Shown piece by piece: positions 2,442-62,800 of a stretch of DNA of 64,000 nucleotides. The position numbers and the translations under genes were made by a program. This DNA comes from Eledone cirrhosa (taxonomy: Eukaryota). Within the stretch, counting starts at the first letter, position 1. The number at the start of each line of letters is the position of its first letter. The notes beneath the pieces were generated by a model that was not told the origin of the DNA, searched no databases, and saw only the letters and a list, made by a program, of their open reading frames with translations. The stretch covers positions 130,510,001-130,574,000 of the forward strand of contig OZ024744.1 of the NCBI GenBank assembly GCA_964016885.1. Reading direction: 5' to 3'.

Positions 2442-3011
2442 CTAAGTTGGGGTTAAGTTAAGTCGGGGTTAAGTTAAGTCGGGGTTAAGTTAAGTTAGGG
2501 TTCAGTTAAGTTGGGGTTAAGTTAAGTTGGGGTTGAGTTAAGTTGGGGTTGAGTTAAGTTGGGGTTAAGTTAAGTTGGGGTTAAGTTAAGTTGCAGTTAA
2601 GTTAAGTTGAGGTTAAGTTAAGGTGCGATTAAGTTAAGTGGGGGTTAAGTTAAGTTGGGGCTAAGTTAAGTTGGGGCTAAGTTAAGTTGGGGCTAAGTTA
2701 AGTTGGTGTTAAGTTAAGTCGGGGTTAAGTTAAGTTGGGGTTAAGTTAAGTTGGGGTTAATTTAAGTTGGGGTTAAGTTAAGTTGGGGTTAAGTTAAGTT
2801 GGGGTTAAGTTAAGTTGGGGTTGAGTTAAGTTGGGTTTAAGTTAAGTTGGGGTTAAGTTAAGTTGGGGTCAAGTTAAGTTGGGGTTAAGTTAAGTTGGTT
2901 AGTTAAGTTGAGTTTAAGTTAAGTTGGGGTTAATTTATGTTGGGGTTAAGTTAAGTTGGGGTTGAGTTACGTTGGGGTTGAGTGAAGTTGGGGTTAAGTT
3001 AAGTTGGGGTT

Positions 3012-3115
3012 AACCCCAACTTCACTCAACACCAACTTAAGTCAACCCCAACTTAACTTAACCCCAACTTGACTTAACCCCAACTTAAATTAGCCCCAAC
3101 TTAACTTAAGCCCAA
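3012..3115 (-). repeat. Inverted satellite island, short allele A (104 bp, 6.5 monomers in reverse orientation)
   Basis: Sequence switches to AACCCCAACTTCACTC-AACACCAACTTAAGTC-...-AAGCCCAA after the GGGGTT|AACCCC junction at 3011/3012, then returns to G-rich orientation. Confidence 0.97.
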
Positions 3116-6100
3116 AATCGGGGTTAAGTTAAGTTGGCGTTATGTTAAGTCAGGCTTAACTTAAGTTGGGGTTCAGTTAAGTTGGGGGTAAGTTAAGTTG
3201 GGGTTAAGTTAAGTTGCGGTTAAGTTGGGGTTAAGTTAAGTTAGGGTTAAGTTAAGTTGGGGTTGAGTTAAGTTGGGGTTAATTAAGTGGTGGTTATGTT
3301 AAGTTGGGGTTAATTTAAATTGGGGTTAAGTTAACTTTGTGGTTAAGTTAAGTCGGGGTTAAGTTAAGTTGGGGTTAAGTTGGGGTTGAGTTAAGTTGGG
3401 GTTGAGTGAAGTTGGGGTTAAGTTAAGTTGGGGTAAAGTTAAGTTGGGGTAAAGTTAAGTTGGGGTTAATTTAAGTTGGGGCTAAGTTAATTTGTGGTTA
3501 AGTTAAGTTGGGGTTAAGTTAAGTTGGGGTTAAGTTAAGTTGGGGTTGAGTTAAGTTGGGGTTGAGTTAAGTTGGGGTTAAATTAAGTTGGGGTCAAGTT
3601 AAGTTGGGGTTAAGTTGGGGTTAAGTTAAGTTAGGTTTAAGTTAAGTTGGGGTTAAGTTAAGTTGGGGTTAAGTTAAGTTGGGGTTAAGTTAAGTTGGGG
3701 TTAAGTTAATTTGTGGTTAAGTTAAGTTGGGGTTAAGTTAAGTTGGGGTTAAGTTAAGTTGGTGTTAAGTTAAGTTGGGGCTAAGTTAAGTTGGGGCTGA
3801 GTTAAGTTGGGGCTGAGTTAAGTTGGGGCTAAGTTAAGTTGGGGTTGAGTTAAGTTGGGGTTAAGTTGGGGTTAAGTTAAGTTAGGTTTAAGTTAAGTTG
3901 GGGTTAAGTTAAGTTGGGGTTAAGTTAAGTTGGGGTTAAGTTAAGTTGGGGTTAAGTTAAGTTGGGGTTAAGTTAATTTGTGGTTAAGTTAAGTTGTGGT
4001 TAAGTTAAGTTGGGGTTAAGTTAAGTTGGGGTTAAGTTAAGTCGGGGTTAAATTAAGTTGGGGTTAAGTTAAGTTGGGGTTAATTTAAGTTGGGGTTAAG
4101 TTAAGTTGGGGTTAAGTTAAGTTGGGGTTAAGTTAATTGGGGTTAAGTTAAGTTGAGGTTAAGTTAAGTTGGGGTTAAATTAAGTTGGGGTTAAGTTAAG
4201 TTGGGGTTAAGTTAAGTTGGGGTTAAGTTAAGTTGGGGATAAGTTAAGTTGGGGATAATTTAAGTTGGGGTTAAGTTAAGTTGGGTTTAAGTTAAGTTGG
4301 GGTTAAGTTAAGTTGGGGCTAAGTTAAGTTGGGGCTAAGTTAAGTTGGGGTTAAGTTAAGTTGGGGTTAAGTTAAGTCGTGGTTAAGTTATGTTGGGGTT
4401 AAGTTAAGTTGGGGTTAATTTAAGTTGGGGTTGAGTTAAGTTGGTGTTGAGTTAAGTTGGGTTTAAGTTAAGTTGGGGTTAAGTTAAGTTGCAGTTAAGT
4501 TAAGTTGAGGTTAAGTTAAGGTGCGGTTAAGTTAAGTTGGGGTTAAGTTAAGTTGGGGCTAAGTTAAGTTGGGGCTAAGTTACGTTGGGGTTCAGTTAAG
4601 TTGGGGTTAAGTTAAGTCGGGGTTAAGTTAAGTTGGGGTTAAGTTAAGTTGGGGTTAATTTAAGTTGGGGTTAAGTTAAGTTGGGGTTAATTTAAGTTGG
4701 GGTTAAGTTAAGTTGGGGTTAAGTTAAGTCGGGGTTAATTTAAGTCGGGGTTAAGTTAAGTTAGGGTTCAGTTAAGTTGGGGTTAAGTTAAGTTGGGGTT
4801 GAGTTAAGTTGGGGTTGAGTTATATTGGGGTTGAGTTAAGTTGGGGTTGAGTTAAGTTGGTGTTGAGTTAAGTTGGGGTTAAGTTAAGTTGGGGTTAAGT
4901 TAAGTTGCAGTTAAGTTAAGTTGAGGTTAAGTTAAGGTGGGGTTAAGTTAAATCGGGGTTAAGTTAAGTTGTGGTTGAGTTAAGTTGGGGTTAATTTAAG
5001 TTGGGGCTAAGTTAATTTGTGGTTACGTTAAGTTGGGGTTAAGTTAAGTTGGGGTTTATTTAAGTTGGGGTTGAGTTAAGTTGGGGTTGAGTTAATTTGG
5101 GGTTAAGTTAAGTTGGGGTTAAGTTAAGTTGGGTTTAAGTTAAGTTGGGGTTAAATTAAGTTGGGGTTAAATTAAGTTGGGGTTAAGTTAAGTTGGGGTT
5201 AAGTTAAGTTGGGGGCAAGTTAAGTTGGGGTTAATTTAAGTTGGGGTTAAATTATGTTGGGGTTACGTTAAGTTGGTGTTAAGTTAAGTTGGGGTTAATT
5301 TAAGTTGGGGTTAATTAAGTTGGGGTTAAGTTAAGTTGGGGTTAAGTTAAGTTGGGGTTAATTTAAGTTGGGGTTGAGTTAAGTTGGGGTTAAGTTAAGT
5401 TGGGGTTATATTAAGTTGGGGTTAAGTTAAGTTGGGGTTCAGTTAAGTTGGGGATAAGTTAAGTTGGGGTTAAGTTAAGTTGGGGTTAATTAAGTTGGGG
5501 TTAAGTTAAGTTGGGGTTAAGTTAAGTTGGGGCTAAGTTAAGTTGGGGCTGAGTTAAGTTGGGGCTGAGTTAAGTTGGGGTTAAGTTAATTTGGGGTTGA
5601 GTTAAGTTGGGGTTAAGTTAAGTTGGGGTTAAGTTAAGTTGGGGTTAAATTAAGTTGGGGTTAAGTTAAGTTGGGGTTAAGTTAAGTTGGGGTTAAGTTA
5701 AGTCGGGGATAAGTTAAGTTGGGGATAATTTAAGTTGGGGTTAAGTTAAGTTGGGTTTAAGTTAAGTTGGGGTTAAGTTAAGTTGGGGTTAAGTTAAGTT
5801 GGGGCTAAGTTAAGTTGGGGTTCAGTTAAGTTGGGGTTAAGTTAAGTTGGGGTTAAGATGGGGTTAAATTAAGTTGGGGTTAAGTTAAGTTGGGGTTAAG
5901 TTAAGTTGGGGTTAAGTTAAGTTGGGGTTAAGTTAAGTCGGGGTTAAGTTAAGTCGGGGTTAAGTTAAGTTAGGGTTCAGTTAATTGGGGTTAAGTTAAG
6001 TTGGGGTTGAGTTAAGTTGGGGTTGAGTTAAATTGGGGTTGAGTTAAGTTGGGGTTGAGTTAAGTTGGTGTTGAGTTAAGTTGGGGTTAAGTTAAGTTGG

Positions 6101-7228
6101 GGTTAAATTAAGTTGGGGTTAAATTAAGTTGGGGTTAAGTTAAGTTGGGGGTAAGTTAAGTTGGGGGCAAGTTAAGTTGGGGTTAATTTAAGTTGGGGTT
6201 AAATTAAGTTGGGGTTACGTTAAGTTGGTGCTAAGTTAAGTTGGGGTTAATTTAAGTTGGGGTTAATTAAGTTGGGGTTAAGTTAAGTTGGGGTTAAGTT
6301 AAGTTGGGGTTAATTTAAGTTGGGATTGAGTTAAGTTGGGGTTAAGTTAATTTGGGGTTATATTAAGTTGGGGTTAAGTTAAGTTGGGGTTCAGTTAAGT
6401 TGGGGTTAAGTTAAGTTGGGGTTAAGTTAAGTTGAGGTTAAGTTAAGTTGGGGTTAAGTTAAGTTGGTGTTAAGTCAAGTTGGGGCTAAGTTAAGTTGGG
6501 GCTGAGTTAAGTTGGGGCTGAGTTAAGTTGGGGCTAAGTTAAGTTGGGTTGAGTTAAGTTGGGGTTAAGTTGGGGTTAAGTTAAGTTAGGTTTAAGTTAA
6601 GTTGGGGTTAAGTTAAGTTGGGGTTAAGTTAAGTTGGGGTTAAGTTAAGTTGGGGTTAAGTTAAGTTGGGGTTAAGTTAATTTGGGGTTAATTTAATTTG
6701 TGGTTAAGTTAAGTTGTGGTTAAGTTAAGTTGGGGTTAAGTTAAGTTGGGGTTAATTTAAGTTGGGGTTAAGTTAAGTTGGGGTTAAGTTAAGTTGGGGT
6801 TAAGTTAAGTTGGGGTTAAGTTAAGTTGGGGATAATTTAAGTTGGGGTTAAGTTAAGTTTGAGTTTAAGTTAAGTTGGGGTTAAGTTAAGTTGGGGTTAA
6901 GTTAAGTTGGGGTTAAGTTAAGTTGGTTAGTTAAGTTGAGTTTAAGTTAAGTTGGGGTTAATTTAAGTTGGGGTTAATTTAAGCTGGGGTTAAGTTAAGT
7001 TGGGGTTAAGTTAAGTTGGGGTTAATTTAAGTTGGGGTTAAGTTAAGTTGGGGTTAAGTTAAGTCGGGGTTAAGTTAAGCTGGGGTTAAGTTAAGTTGGG
7101 GTTAAGTTAAGTTGGGGTTAAGTTAAGTTGGTTAGTTAAGTTGAGTTTAAGTTAAGTTGGGGTTAATTTAAGTTGGGGTTAAGTTAAGTTGGGGTTAAGT
7201 TAAGTTGGGGTTAAGTTAAGTTGGGGTT

Positions 7229-7403
7229 AACCCCAACTTAACTTAACCCCAACTTCACTCAACCCCAACGTAACTCAACCCCAACTTAACTTAACCCCAA
7301 CTTCACTCAACCCCAACTTAACTTAACCCCAACTTCACTCAACCCCAACTTCCAACTTGACTTAACCCCAACTTAACTTAGCCCCAACTTAACTTAAGCC
7401 CAA
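7229..7403 (-). repeat. Inverted satellite island, long allele B (175 bp), copy 1
   Basis: AACCCCAACTTAACTT-AACCCCAACTTCACTC-AACCCCAACGTAACTC-...-AAGCCCAA, the reverse complement of the monomer. Confidence 0.97.
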
Positions 7404-9885
7404 AGTCGGGGTTAAGTTAAGTTGGCGTTAAGTTAAGTTGGCGTTAAGTTAAGTTAGGCTTAACTTAAGTTGGGGTTCAGTTAAGTTGGGGGTAAGTTAA
7501 GTTGGGGTTAAGTTAAGTTAGGGTTAAGTTAAGTTGGGGTTGAGTTAAGTTGGGGTTAATTAAGTGGTGGTTATGTTAAGTTGGGGTTAAGTTAAGTTGG
7601 GGTTAATTTAAATTGGGGTTAAGTTAACTTTGTGGTTAAGTTAAGTTGGGGTTAAGTTAAGTTGGGGTAAAGTTGGGGTTGAGTTAAGTTGGGGTTGAGT
7701 GAAGTTGGGGTTAAGTTAAGTTGGGGTTAAGTTAAGTTGGGGTTAAGATAAGTCGGGGTTAAGTTAAGTTGTGATTGAGTTAAGTTGGGGTTAATTTAAG
7801 TTGGGGCTAAGTTAATTTGTGGTTAAGTTAAGTTGGGGTTAAGTTAAGTTGGGGTTAAGTTAAGTTGGGGTTGAGTTAAGTTGGGGCTGAGTTAATTTGG
7901 GTTTAAGTTAAGTTGGGGTTAAGTTAAGTTGGGTTTAAGTTAAGTTGGGGTTAAATTAAGTTGGGGTTAAATTAAGTTGGGGTTAAGTTAAGTTGGGGGT
8001 AAGTTAAGTTGGGGGCAAGTTAAGTTGGGGTTAATTTAAGTTGGGGTTAAATTAAGTTGGGGTTACGTTAAGTTGGTGTTAAGTTAAGTTGGGGTTAATT
8101 TAAGTTGGGGTTAATTAAGTTGGGGTTAAGTTAAGTTGGGGTTAAGTTAAGTTGGGGTTAATTTAAGTTGGGGTTGAGTTAAGTTGGGGTTAAGTTAAGT
8201 TGGGGTTATATTAAGTTGGGGTTAAGTTAAGTTGGGGTTCAGTTAAGTTGGGGTTAAGTTAAGTTGGGGTTAAGTTAAGTTGAGGTTAAGTTAAGTTGGG
8301 GTTAAGTTAAGTTGGTGTTAAGTTAAGTTGGGGCTAAGTTAAGTTGGGGCTGAGTTAAGTTGGGGCTGAGTTAAGTTGGGGCTAAGTTAAGTTGGGGTTG
8401 AGTTAAGTTGGGGTTAAGTTGGGGTTAAGTTAAGTTAGGTTTAAGTTAAGTTGGGGTTAAGTTAAGTTGGGGTTAAGTTAAGTTGGGGTTAAGTTAAGTT
8501 GGGGTTAAGTTAAGTTGGGGTTAAGTTAAGTTGGGGTTAAGTTAAGTTGGGGTTAAGTTAATTTGTGGTTAAGTTAAGTTGTGGTTAAGTTAAGTTGGTT
8601 AGTTAAGTTGAGTTTAAGTTAAGTTGGGGTTAAGTTAAGTTGGGGTTAAGTTAAGTTGGGGTTAAGTTAAGTCGGGGTTAAGTTAAGTTATGGTTCAGTT
8701 AAGTTGGGGTTAAGTTAAGTTGGGGTTGAGTTAAGTTGGGGTTGAGTTAAATTGGGGTTGAGTTAAGTTGGGGTTGAGTTAAGTTGGTGTTGAGTTAAGT
8801 TGGGGTTAAGTTAAGTTGGGGTTAAATTAAGTTGGGGTTAAATTAAGTTGGGGTTAAGTTAAGTTGGGGGTAAGTTAAGTTGGGGGCAAGTTAAGTTGGG
8901 GTTAATTTAAGTTGGGGTTAAATTAAGTTGGGGTTACGTTAAGTTGGTGTTAAGTTAAGTTGGGGTTAATTTAAGTTGGGGTTAATTAATGTTGGGGTTA
9001 AGTTAAGTTGGGGTTAAGTTAAGTTGGGGTTAAGTTAAGTTGAGGTTAAGTTAAGTTGGGGTTAAGTTAAGTTGGTGTTAAGTTAAGTTGGGGCTAAGTT
9101 AAGTTGGGGCTGAGTTAAGTTGGGGCTGAGTTAAGTTGGGGCTAAGTTAAGTTGGGGTTGAGTTAAGTTGGGGTTAAGTTGGGGTTAAGTTAAGTTAGGT
9201 TTAAGTTAAGTTGGGTTTAAGTTAAGTTGGGGTTAAGTTAAGTTGGGGTTAAGTTAAGTTGGGGTTAAGTTAAGTTGGGGTTAAGTTAAGTTGGGGTTAA
9301 GTTAAGTTGGGGTTAAGTTAAGTTGGGGTTAAGTTAAGTCGGGGTTAAGTTAAGTTGGGGTTAAGTTAAGTTGGGGTTAAGTTAAGTTGGGGTTAAGTTA
9401 AGTTGGAGTTAAGTTAAGTCGGGGTTAAGTTAAGTTGGGGTTAAGTTAAGTTGGGGTTAAGTTAAGTTGGGTTTAAGTTAAGTTGGGGATAATTTAAGTT
9501 GGGGTTAAGTTAAGTTTGAGTTTAAGTTAAGTTGGGGTTAAGTTAAGTTGGGGTTAAGTTAAGTTGGGGTTAAGTTGAGTTGGTTAGTTAAGTTGAGTTT
9601 AAGTTAAGTTGGGGTTAATTTAAGTTGGGGTTAAGTTAAGCTGGGGTTAAGTTAAGTTGGGGTTAATTTAAGTTGGGGTTAATTTAAGTTGGGGTTAAGT
9701 TAAGTTGGGGTTAAGTTAAGTCGGGGTTAAGTTAAGTTGGGGTTAAGTTAAGTTGGGGTTAAGTTAAGTTGAGGTTAAGTTAAGTTGGTTAGTTAAGTTG
9801 AGTTTAAGTTAAGTTGGGGTTAATTTAAGTTGGGGTTAAGTTAAGTTGGGGTTAAGTTAAGTTGGGGTTAAGTTAAGTTGGGGTT

Positions 9886-10060
9886 AACCCCAACTTAACT
9901 TAACCCCAACTTCACTCAACCCCAACGTAACTCAACCCCAACTTAACTTAACCCCAACTTCACTCAACCCCAACTTAACTTAACCCCAACTTCACTCAAC
10001 CCCAACTTCCAACTTGACTTAACCCCAACTTAACTTAGCCCCAACTTAACTTATGCCCAA
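9886..10060 (-). repeat. Inverted satellite island, allele B, copy 2 (TTATGCCCAA end variant)
   Basis: Same 175-bp sequence with one substitution near the right end. Confidence 0.97.
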
Positions 10061-59801: not shown

Positions 59802-62800
59802 CTAAGTTGGGGTTAAGTTAAGTCGGGGTTAAGTTAAGTCGGGGTTAAGTTAAGTTAGGGTTCAGTTAAGTTGGGGTTAAGTTAAGTTGGGGTTGAGTTA
59901 AGTTGGGGTTGAGTTAAGTTGGGGTTAAGTTAAGTTGGGGTTAAGTTAAGTTGCAGTTAAGTTAAGTTGAGGTTAAGTTAAGGTGCGATTAAGTTAAGTT
60001 GGGGTTAAGTTAAGTTGGGGCTAAGTTAAGTTGGGGCTAAGTTAAGTTGGGGCTAAGTTAAGTTGGTGTTAAGTTAAGTCGGGGTTAAGTTAAGTTGGGG
60101 TTAAGTTAAGTTGGGGTTAATTTAAGTTGGGGTTAAGTTAAGTTGGGGTTAAGTTAAGTTGGGGTTAAGTTAAGTTGGGGTTGAGTTAAGTTGGGTTTAA
60201 GTTAAGTTGGGGTTAAGTTAAGTTGGGGTCAAGTTAAGTTGGGGTTAAGTTAAGTTGGTTAGTTAAGTTGAGTTTAAGTTAAGTTGGGGTTAATTTATGT
60301 TGGGGTTAAGTTAAGTTGGGGTTGAGTTACGTTGGGGTTGAGTGAAGTTGGGGTTAAGTTAAGTTGGGGTTAACCCCAACTTCACTCAACACCAACTTAA
60401 GTCAACCCCAACTTAACTTAACCCCAACTTGACTTAACCCCAACTTAAATTAGCCCCAACTTAACTTAAGCCCAAAATCGGGGTTAAGTTAAGTTGGCGT
60501 TATGTTAAGTCAGGCTTAACTTAAGTTGGGGTTCAGTTAAGTTGGGGGTAAGTTAAGTTGGGGTTAAGTTAAGTTGCGGTTAAGTTGGGGTTAAGTTAAG
60601 TTAGGGTTAAGTTAAGTTGGGGTTGAGTTAAGTTGGGGTTAATTAAGTGGTGGTTATGTTAAGTTGGGGTTAATTTAAATTGGGGTTAAGTTAACTTTGT
60701 GGTTAAGTTAAGTCGGGGTTAAGTTAAGTTGGGGTTAAGTTGGGGTTGAGTTAAGTTGGGGTTGAGTGAAGTTGGGGTTAAGTTAAGTTGGGGTAAAGTT
60801 AAGTTGGGGTTAAGTTAAGTCGGGGTTAAGTTAAGTTATGGTTGAGTTAAGTTGGGGTTAATTTAAGTTGGGGCTAAGTTAATTTGTGGTTAAGTTAAGT
60901 TGGGGTTAAGTTAAGTTGGGGTTAAGTTAAGTTGGGGTTGAGTTAAGTTGGGGTTGAGTTAAGTTGGGGTTAAATTAAGTTGGGGTCAAGTTAAGTTGGG
61001 GTTAAGTTGGGGTTAAGTTAAGTTAGGTTTAAGTTAAGTTGGGGTTAAGTTAAGTTGGGGTTAAGTTAAGTTGGGGTTAAGTTAAGTTGGGGTTAAGTTA
61101 AGTTGGGGTTAAGTTAATTTGTGGTTAAGTTAAGTTGGGGTTAAGTTAAGTTGGGGTTAAGTTAAGTCGGGGTTAATTTAAGTTGGGGTTAAGTTAAGTT
61201 GGGGTTAATTTAAGTTGGGGTTAAGTTAAGTTGGGGTTAAGTTAAGTTGGGGTTAAGTTAAGTTGGGGTTAAGTTAAGTTGGGGTTAAATTAAGTTGGGG
61301 TTAAGTTAAGTTGGGGTTAAGTTAAGTTGGTGTTAAGTTAAGTTGGGGCTAAGTTAAGTTGGGGCTGAGTTAAGTTGGGGCTGAGTTAAGTTGGGGCTAA
61401 GTTAAGTTGGGGTTGAGTTAAGTTGGGGTTAAGTTGGGGTTAAGTTAAGTTAGGTTTAAGTTAAGTTGGGGTTAAGTTAAGTTGGGGTTAAGTTAAGTTG
61501 GGGTTAAGTTAAGTTGGGGTTAAGTTAAGTTGGGGTTAAGTTAATTTGTGGTTAAGTTAAGTTGTGGTTAAGTTAAGTTGGGGTTAAGTTAAGTTGGGGT
61601 TAAGTTAAGTCGGGGTTAAATTAAGTTTGGGTTAAGTTAAGTTGGGGTTAATTTAAGTTGGGGTTAAGTTAAGTTGGGGTTAAGTTAAGTTGGGGTTAAG
61701 TTAATTGGGGTTAAGTTAAGTTGAGGTTAAGTTAAGTTGGGGTTAAATTAAGTTGGGGTTAAGTTAAGTTGGGGTTAAGTTAAGTTGGGGTTAAGTTAAG
61801 TTGGGGATAAGTTAAGTTGGGGATAATTTAAGTTGGGGTTAAGTTAAGTTGGGTTTAAGTTAAGTTGGGGTTAAGTTAAGTTGGGGCTAAGTTAAGTTGG
61901 GGCTAAGTTAAGTTGGGGTTAAGTTAAGTTGGGGTTAAGTTAAGTCGTGGTTAAGTTAAGTTGGGGTTAAGTTAAGTTGGGGTTAATTTAAGTTGGGGTT
62001 GAGTTAAGTTGGTGTTGAGTTAAGTTGGGTTTAAGTTAAGTTGGGGTTAAGTTAAGTTGCAGTTAAGTTAAGTTGAGGTTAAGTTAAGGTGCGGTTAAGT
62101 TAAGTTGGGGTTAAGTTAAGTTGGGGCTAAGTTAAGTTGGGGCTAAGTTACGTTGGGGTTCAGTTAAGTTGGGGTTAAGTTAAGTCGGGGTTAAGTTAAG
62201 TTGGGGTTAAGTTAAGTTGGGGTTAATTTAAGTTGGGGTTAAGTTAAGTTGGGGTTAATTTAAGTTGGGGTTAAGTTAAGTTGGGGTTAAGTTAAGTCGG
62301 GGTTAATTTAAGTCGGGGTTAAGTTAAGTTAGGGTTCAGTTAAGTTGGGGTTAAGTTAAGTTGGGGTTGAGTTAAGTTGGGGTTGAGTTATATTGGGGTT
62401 GAGTTAAGTTGGGGTTGAGTTAAGTTGGTGTTGAGTTAAGTTGGGGTTAAGTTAAGTTGGGGTTAAGTTAAGTTGCAGTTAAGTTAAGTTGAGGTTAAGT
62501 TAAGGTGGGGTTAAGTTAAATCGGGGTTAAGTTAAGTTGTGGTTGAGTTAAGTTGGGGTTAATTTAAGTTGGGGCTAAGTTAATTTGTGGTTAAGTTAAG
62601 TTGGGGTTAAGTTAAGTTGGGGTTTATTTAAGTTGGGGTTGAGTTAAGTTGGGGTTGAGTTAATTTGGGGTTAAGTTAAGTTGGGGTTAAGTTAAGTTGG
62701 GTTTAAGTTAAGTTGGGGTTAAATTAAGTTGGGGTTAAATTAAGTTGGGGTTAAGTTAAGTTGGGGTTAAGTTAAGTTGGGGGCAAGTTAAGTTGGGGTT

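What the first reader, a model, noticed from the sequence alone, without database searches (positions are those of the whole stretch)
2948..3115. The two island alleles differ by an exact 64-bp flip: an invertible segment inside a satellite
Seen: 2948-3011 (AAGTTAAGTTGGGGTTGAGTTACGTTGGGGTTGAGTGAAGTTGGGGTTAAGTTAAGTTGGGGTT), just left of the allele-A junction, is the exact reverse complement of 7229-7292, the first 64 bp of allele B. It includes the rare variants GAGTTACG and GAGTGAAG. In both alleles the segment is preceded by ...GTTGGGGTT and followed by AACCCCAACTTCACTCAAC, and both share the upstream TTGGTTAG-TTGAGTTT marker and the downstream flank. Inference: the segment was inverted between flanking inverted repeats (stem-loop flip or template switching). 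This would move the strand-switch boundary by four monomers while regenerating the same GGGGTT|AACCCC junction, giving a way for orientation boundaries to migrate in satellite arrays. The exact breakpoints are ambiguous by whole monomers.
Basis: partly seen in the sequence, partly recalled or inferred. Interest (0 to 1): 0.75.

Follow-up and report, generated by a model that had tools for sequence, protein, structure and literature searches.

The report
Hairpin flips nudge a satellite boundary
In a long array of a 16-letter DNA repeat, 3 of about 490 copies of a small back-to-front patch carry a short stretch turned around across the patch's edge, likely through rare copying slips at a hairpin rather than a built-in switch, which moves the edge by one or two repeat units.

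Summary
The 64/64 reverse-complement match is real (84 bp at full extent; only four sites differ from consensus). But A and B do not differ by that flip: turning 7229-7292 round leaves 68 edits to A. Allele A (2 copies) descends from a third allele, C, found elsewhere in the array: one switch-and-return that copies 46-84 bp backwards and loses 80 bp rebuilds the island and its left arm exactly. A second flipped allele, 35 kb left of A, is an exact, length-neutral 64-bp inversion of a common B form between perfect 27-bp inverted arms. The turned piece spans the junction, so the boundary moves by +1 or +2 monomers, not 4. Flipped copies are 3 of about 491. This is likely the known inverted-repeat spacer inversion by template switching, a rare mutation and not a switch; A may instead have received the tract from the second allele by gene conversion. 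No reads were checked.

The parts
2895..2915 (+). Higher-order-repeat landmark used as the fixed ruler upstream of the island; not island-specific
   Evidence: 34 copies on + in the window
2932..2947 (+). Variant monomer F*, shared by allele A and its nearest C-type relatives; it ends the left inverted-repeat match
   Evidence: F* also occurs on other tails, so it is a weak marker (58 matches; 30 of them read)
2939..3022 (+). Largest extent (84 bp) of the reverse-copied tract in allele A, including 25 bp and 13 bp of microhomology at the two inferred switch points
2948..3011 (+).
2964..3009 (+). Smallest reverse-copied tract (46 bp) holding the four informative sites 2964, 2970, 2980, 2984
3012..3118 (-). 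Allele A island (x z n w f v and distal junction): the C-type tail, six monomers shorter than the C island
7229..7406 (-). Allele B island (n x y n x n x, 25-bp internal deletion, n v); further copies start at 9886, 13185, 15906, 19282, 22003 and 26837
7218..7301 (-). Counterpart in allele B of the 84-bp match; crosses the B junction at 7228/7229
60308..60478 (+). Second copy of allele A (flipped tract and island), 57,360 bp from the first
   Evidence: identical for 372 bp left and 439 bp right of the junction, 4 differences in 2,499 bp upstream

Best explanation
Allele A carries on its forward side the exact reverse complement of monomers that normally open the island, and it likely arose from allele C, not B, by a rare replication template switch across the hairpin-like junction, likely independently of a second flipped allele 35 kb away. 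Each island start is an imperfect palindrome: forward monomers, the junction, then reversed monomers. A polymerase copying a forward monomer just left of the junction would find a perfect partner for its 3' end on the opposite strand a few monomers right of the junction (25-27 bp of identity), copy back across the junction in reverse, and return. An in-register return gives a length-neutral inversion of the spacer between the arms (second allele: [N | n x y] becomes [Y X N | n], boundary +2 monomers). A return five monomers too far gives allele A (46-84 bp copied backwards, 80 bp lost, boundary +1 monomer); a clean inversion followed by an ordinary 80-bp slippage deletion would give the same product. 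Shown: the sequences, the exact reconstructions, the counts. Inferred: the direction of change, the parents, the mechanism, the independence of the two events. It is a passenger mutation with no sign of a function.
For: Second allele = exact single inversion of a B form held by 16 sampled islands; shortest 64 bp, longest 118 bp, arms 27 bp and identical. Allele A = C* (C28:130325603, 130505792) under 364 equivalent four-point solutions, all of order 1-3-2-4, net -80 bp; the C* copy at 130505792 lies 7.2 kb left of A. A's island plus 60 bp of flank is 0-2 edits from three C-type copies and 20 from B at 7229. Gain of Y X on the left comes with loss of y on the right in both flipped types, while y is lost by other routes in 24 of the other 299 islands of that family. 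The unflipped state is the bulk (443 reverse and 43 forward matches), and x lies on the island side in the diverged sub-arrays read at 124.6, 131.4 and 132.0 Mb, which sets the direction. Island-internal deletions of whole monomers recur without any flip. Type 1-3-2-4 made up 45% of human-chimp template-switch events (PMC5453318, passages); spacer inversion between perfect arms longer than 9 bp recurs and reverses in yeast (PMC8604942, passages).
Against: No sampled parent matches A at every marker: the F* C copies differ from A at one upstream and one downstream site, and the C copies that match there lack F*. Both flipped types share the same left half (N Y X N), which a single flip plus transfer explains more simply. 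The intermediate (clean inversion on the C background) is absent from this assembly: the pattern found F* followed by N Y only in the two A copies. The second allele is a single copy and no reads were laid on it. Sequence alone cannot separate template switching from break repair or from recombination between the arms.
Confidence: 0.6

Rival explanations
1. Only one flip happened (the clean one on the B background); allele A received the flipped tract from that allele or a lost copy of it by non-allelic gene conversion into a C* copy, with an out-of-register return that dropped the first six island monomers.
For: The left halves are identical at all four informative sites. F* and other markers sit on several tails, so the copies are mosaics or the marker arose more than once. 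Conversion tracts in Arabidopsis centromeres average 58.5 bp (10.1101/2025.06.02.657473, passages), the size needed here. The donor is 35 kb away.
Against: Both tract ends must fall in narrow windows (25 bp left if F* was inherited, 13 bp right) with a five-monomer misregister; the donor is 1 of about 490 copies today; reported donors lay a median of 16 repeat units away. A's flanks are C-type on both sides.
Confidence: 0.27
2. One reading: A and B are the two orientations of one 64-bp island-internal segment, and the boundary moves by four monomers.
For: The 64/64 match and the flanking words are as described.
Against: 68 edits remain after that flip; the boundary differs by one monomer; no marker-bearing island with at most 2 monomers between marker and junction among the 320 read; A's tail is C-type.
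Confidence: 0.03
3. The flipped alleles are sequencing or assembly artefacts at a strong hairpin.
For: The junction regions fold into long hairpins (-72 to -89 kcal/mol for 192 nt); the second allele is a single copy; no read check was made.
Against: The two A copies have the same flipped core inside flanks that differ (4 substitutions in 2,499 bp upstream; monomer indels downstream), so the flip predates a duplication; an artefact of the hairpin should touch more than 3 of about 491 near-identical junctions.
Confidence: 0.06
4. Y X arose on the forward side by point mutation or by copying the forward E X pair from the downstream flank, and the match to the island is coincidence.
For: A junction-free forward Y X exists once, in the downstream-flank context at C28:131413632; x-to-y and y-to-x replacements occur inside islands.
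Against: It needs four substitutions, or a transfer plus one, next to the junction and, separately, loss of x y from the island in both types; the second allele is length-neutral and exact under one inversion.
Confidence: 0.03
5. A programmed or frequently toggling switch, like bacterial invertons or flip/flop viral ends (both recalled, not looked up), with a role in the array.
For: Perfect 27-bp inverted arms flank the clean flip, and the flip leaves them intact.
Confidence: 0.01

Closest known systems
Inverted-repeat spacer inversion and four-point template switch, type 1-3-2-4 (PMC5453318; PMC8604942; passages seen)
   Same: A segment is replaced by the exact reverse complement of nearby sequence; flanked by inverted arms; switch order 1-3-2-4; can recur and reverse.
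   Different: Those studies used unique or coding DNA, with spacers of 2-5 bp in yeast genes. Here the arms are satellite monomers, the spacer is 64 bp and holds the orientation junction, so the event moves a strand-switch boundary by whole monomers.
Human-chimpanzee microinversions flanked by inverted repeats, proposed MMBIR origin (PMC8755829; abstract and outline seen)
   Same: Exact copying of the inverted piece between perfect or near-perfect inverted repeats.
   Different: 17-33 nt there against 46-118 bp here; here hundreds of paralogues let the likely parent be read from the same genome.
Hairpin-linked, homoplastic microinversions of chloroplasts and bird intron hotspots (PMC3123225; passages seen)
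   Same: Repeated inversion at one hairpin-forming site.
   Different: The bird hotspots showed no stem-loops; chloroplast cases sit in conserved regulatory stem-loops, whereas this hairpin is a by-product of an older inversion.
Conserved inversion sites of Tribolium madens satellites TmSat1 and TmSat2 (PMC13081366; passages seen); strand switches in human beta-satellite and HSat3 (10.64898/2026.07.22.740206; passages seen); microinversions proposed for Hieracium HintCl-18 arrays (PMC11566620; passages seen)
   Same: Amplified orientation junctions inside satellite arrays, able to form hairpins on paper.
   Different: In the passages I saw, junctions are described as conserved or as by-products of array growth; none traces a secondary flip across a junction to its parent allele.

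Membership tests
Inverted-repeat spacer inversion | Derived allele equals the parent with one segment reverse-complemented and nothing else changed | tested here: met
   Met for the second allele at C28:130478317. Not met for window allele A, which also lacks 80 bp.
Inverted-repeat spacer inversion | Perfect or near-perfect inverted arms flank the inverted piece in the parent | tested here: met
   27-bp identical arms for the second allele; 25 bp and 13 bp of microhomology at the two switches of allele A.
Four-point template switch (1-3-2-4) | One switch-and-return with the middle piece copied in reverse from nearby sequence, switch order among the observed types | tested here: met
   364 of 364 solutions for A from C* have order 1-3-2-4; parent inferred from paralogues.
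Four-point template switch (1-3-2-4) | Arises during replication in one step, by an inter-strand switch | not testable with these tools
   Inversion followed by deletion, break repair and gene conversion give the same sequence.
Programmed invertible element (inverton; features recalled) | Both orientations common, with one fixed pair of breakpoints | tested here: not met
   3 of about 491 copies and two different products.
Programmed invertible element (inverton; features recalled) | A dedicated recombinase and specific recognition sites | not tested
   The arms are consensus satellite monomers and the window is satellite from end to end; no recombinase search was made.
Amplified satellite inversion sites (Tribolium type) | One junction sequence repeated in many copies within the array | tested here: met
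   777 forward and 783 reverse matches of the junction word; shared marker and distal junction in diverged sub-arrays.
Amplified satellite inversion sites (Tribolium type) | Multi-kilobase symmetric arms (macro-dyads) | tested here: not met
   Islands here are about 100-430 bp inside one-directional array.

The most novel reading that the evidence does not exclude
Orientation junctions in satellite arrays are self-remodelling hotspots: asymmetric flips across the junction recur independently, regenerate the same junction word and let the boundary random-walk in both directions by whole monomers, mostly invisibly because consensus monomers leave no trace. The spread of junction positions among island families (0, 1 or 2 plain monomers before x) would then be partly the record of that walk, and the array would serve as a natural mutation-accumulation panel for measuring hairpin template-switch rates (roughly 1-2 flips against about 70 point variants at this locus).
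Probability: 0.35. Interest if true: 0.55.

Novelty: new variant of a known kind. Interest (0 to 1): 0.32.

Why it matters
It gives a base-exact example, with the likely parent in the same genome, of how a strand-switch boundary in a satellite can move while keeping its junction sequence. That warns against reading a 'conserved' junction word as a fixed or functional site. It also offers a rough rate: 1-2 flips against 67-74 distinct point variants over about 270 bp in 273 islands, so a flip per junction would be some 4-8 times as likely as a substitution per base; the variant count is a lower bound, so the ratio is an upper bound. No function is indicated, and the mechanism class is established.

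Tried and rejected
Simple B-to-A flip: rejected. My own first count that A and B have the junction at the same distance from the marker (note) was wrong and was corrected. Longer flips carrying X N Y or X N X to the forward side: 0 matches, and 0 forward with 6 reverse matches that proved ordinary islands of older families. The pattern gave 14 matches: 3 flipped alleles, 1 unflipped C variant and 10 without a junction in the stretch read; it would miss flips with other upstream variants. F* as a clean lineage marker: rejected, it sits on several tails and on island-free copies (30 of 58 read). Flank identity did not single out a two-N parent for the second allele: the best flank matches have 1 to 5 N, the longest downstream match has 4, so an inversion with a small indel is also possible. 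Hairpin energies are confounded by how far each 192-nt window reaches upstream; not used as evidence of stabilisation. Literature: seven searches showed no title or abstract start on secondary flips across a satellite orientation junction; the library lacks most subscription journals and I read no supplements. Earlier-findings look-ups by words and by near place returned nothing. I did not identify the species.

Full report
Setting. The window is one 16-bp satellite from end to end, on contig C28 of a 3.0-Gb genome. It holds nine short reversed islands: allele A at 3012 and 60372, allele B seven times between 7229 and 26837. The junction word has 777 forward and 783 reverse matches in the genome, all listed places on C28. 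I write monomers as letters: N consensus forward, n reversed; X and Y the variants holding GAGTGAAG and GAGTTACG, x and y reversed; M the upstream landmark; F the next variant, F* with one more change; a bar for the junction.

Observation. 2948-3011 is the exact reverse complement of 7229-7292, and the match extends to 84 bp. Four positions differ from consensus.

B is not the parent. A reads M N F* N Y X N | x z n w f v; B at 7229 reads M N F N N N | n x y n x n x, a 25-bp deletion, n v. Turning 7229-7292 round gives M N F N N N N Y X N | x n x..., still 68 edits from A (77 without the flip). The junction lies 96 bp from the landmark in A and 80 bp in B, one monomer apart, not four. An island-only flip would need a parent with at most two monomers after the landmark; none of the marker-bearing islands among 320 read in 794 kb has that.

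The parent is allele C. The first genome search showed islands with B's start and A's end: M N F* N N N | n x y n x n x z n w f v, one copy 7.2 kb left of A. A's island and 60 bp of flank are 0-2 edits from three C copies and 20 from B. From C* one switch-and-return rebuilds A exactly from landmark to distal junction: 57 bp kept, 46 bp copied backwards from across the junction, return 80 bp further on. All 364 equivalent solutions have order 1-3-2-4, with 25 bp and 13 bp of microhomology at the switches. A clean inversion followed by a five-monomer deletion gives the same product; such island deletions occur without flips, but the intermediate is not in this assembly. No sampled C copy matches A at all three nearby markers, so the true parent is inferred.

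A clean flip exists 35 kb to the left. At C28:130478317 the allele reads M N F N Y X N | n n x n x with B's tail. It equals a B form with two N, held by 16 sampled islands, after one inversion and no other change; the shortest solution is 64 bp, [N | n x y] to [Y X N | n], between identical 27-bp inverted arms. The junction moves by two monomers and the arms survive, so the flip is reversible on paper. Flank identity does not prove that the parent had two N.

Frequency. Flipped alleles are 3 of 320 islands in the 794-kb census, none more with Y or X in 152 junctions from a further 599 kb or in 74 partly overlapping junctions of an older family, and 3 of 491 Y X matches genome-wide. Longer flips were not found. 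Of 302 islands in the y-bearing family, 27 lack y: the 3 flips and 24 others, so the pairing of gain on the left with loss on the right is not what chance would give. Against 67-74 distinct point variants in the same 270 bp of 273 islands, one or two flips is a modest hotspot, not a toggle.

A third remodelling, in the other direction. At C28:132065772 seven monomers that normally end the left arm, including a private 15-bp monomer, stand mirrored at the start of the island. That monomer abuts the junction on the array side in 46 of 47 matches, judged by strand and by the copies read, and on the island side only here. The left side comes from another part of the repeat and the tail from a sister island type, so this is a mosaic, not a clean flip; it fits the island's first monomer acting as a landing site.

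Real or artefact. The two A copies share the flipped core but differ at 4 of 2,499 upstream bases and by monomer indels downstream, so the flip predates a duplication. The second allele is single-copy and unchecked. Run search was uninformative.

Mechanism and rivals. Most likely an inter-strand template switch between inverted monomers that flank the junction, twice independently (0.60). The main rival is one flip plus gene conversion into C* (0.27): the left halves are identical, and conversion tracts near 58 bp are documented in Arabidopsis centromeres (10.1101/2025.06.02.657473, passages). Artefact 0.06; island-only flip 0.03; point mutation 0.03; programmed switch 0.01. Break repair (MMBIR, PMC8755829 abstract) and recombination between the arms cannot be told from template switching by sequence.

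Comparison with what is known. The event type is established: 1-3-2-4 was 45% of human-chimp switch events (PMC5453318, passages), and spacer inversions between arms longer than 9 bp recur and reverse in yeast (PMC8604942, passages). Amplified junctions in satellites are known (PMC13081366; 10.64898/2026.07.22.740206; PMC11566620; passages only). Seven searches showed no paper tracing a secondary flip across such a junction; supplements were not read and could bear on this. Earlier scan notes on this genome describe the island family as one old inversion copied hundreds of times and as a seed of larger inversions (8 of 573 notes shown); none of those shown describes this flip.

Verdict. Observation partly confirmed, interpretation partly supported. 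A real, rare, junction-spanning microinversion that shifts a satellite orientation boundary by one or two monomers: a new variant of a known mutation type, no sign of function. Interest 0.32.

Noticed in passing
   Followed up: yes
L188:5772 (G000:C28:132065772): Seven left-arm monomers with a private variant stand mirrored at the island start; left side and tail come from other sources, like a multi-template event.
   Followed up: partly
G000:C28:130418253 and 130422462: Truncated islands (n x y, 58 bp) with a new distal junction, each followed about 240 bp later by a full island.
   Followed up: no
G000:C28:130247642, 131043549, 131147521: Island families with two, one or no plain reversed monomers before x; could be slippage or invisible one-monomer flips.
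   Followed up: partly
G000:C28:130931171, 130934116: Islands in which y is replaced by x or x by y at the same slot: monomer-level slippage or conversion inside the island.
   Followed up: no
L071 (G000:C28:131413632): Forward Y X without a junction, at the place where the downstream flank usually has E X; likely an independent A-to-C change.
   Followed up: partly
window 26837-60372: About 33 kb of the same satellite without any island between the last B and the second A copy.
   Followed up: no
L189 near G000:C28:132084700-132084900: AT-rich non-satellite patch adjoining the array just upstream of an island-bearing repeat.
   Followed up: no
L171 (G000:C28:131325349): An island-bearing stretch in reversed orientation inside the forward part of the array; its extent was not mapped.
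   Followed up: no
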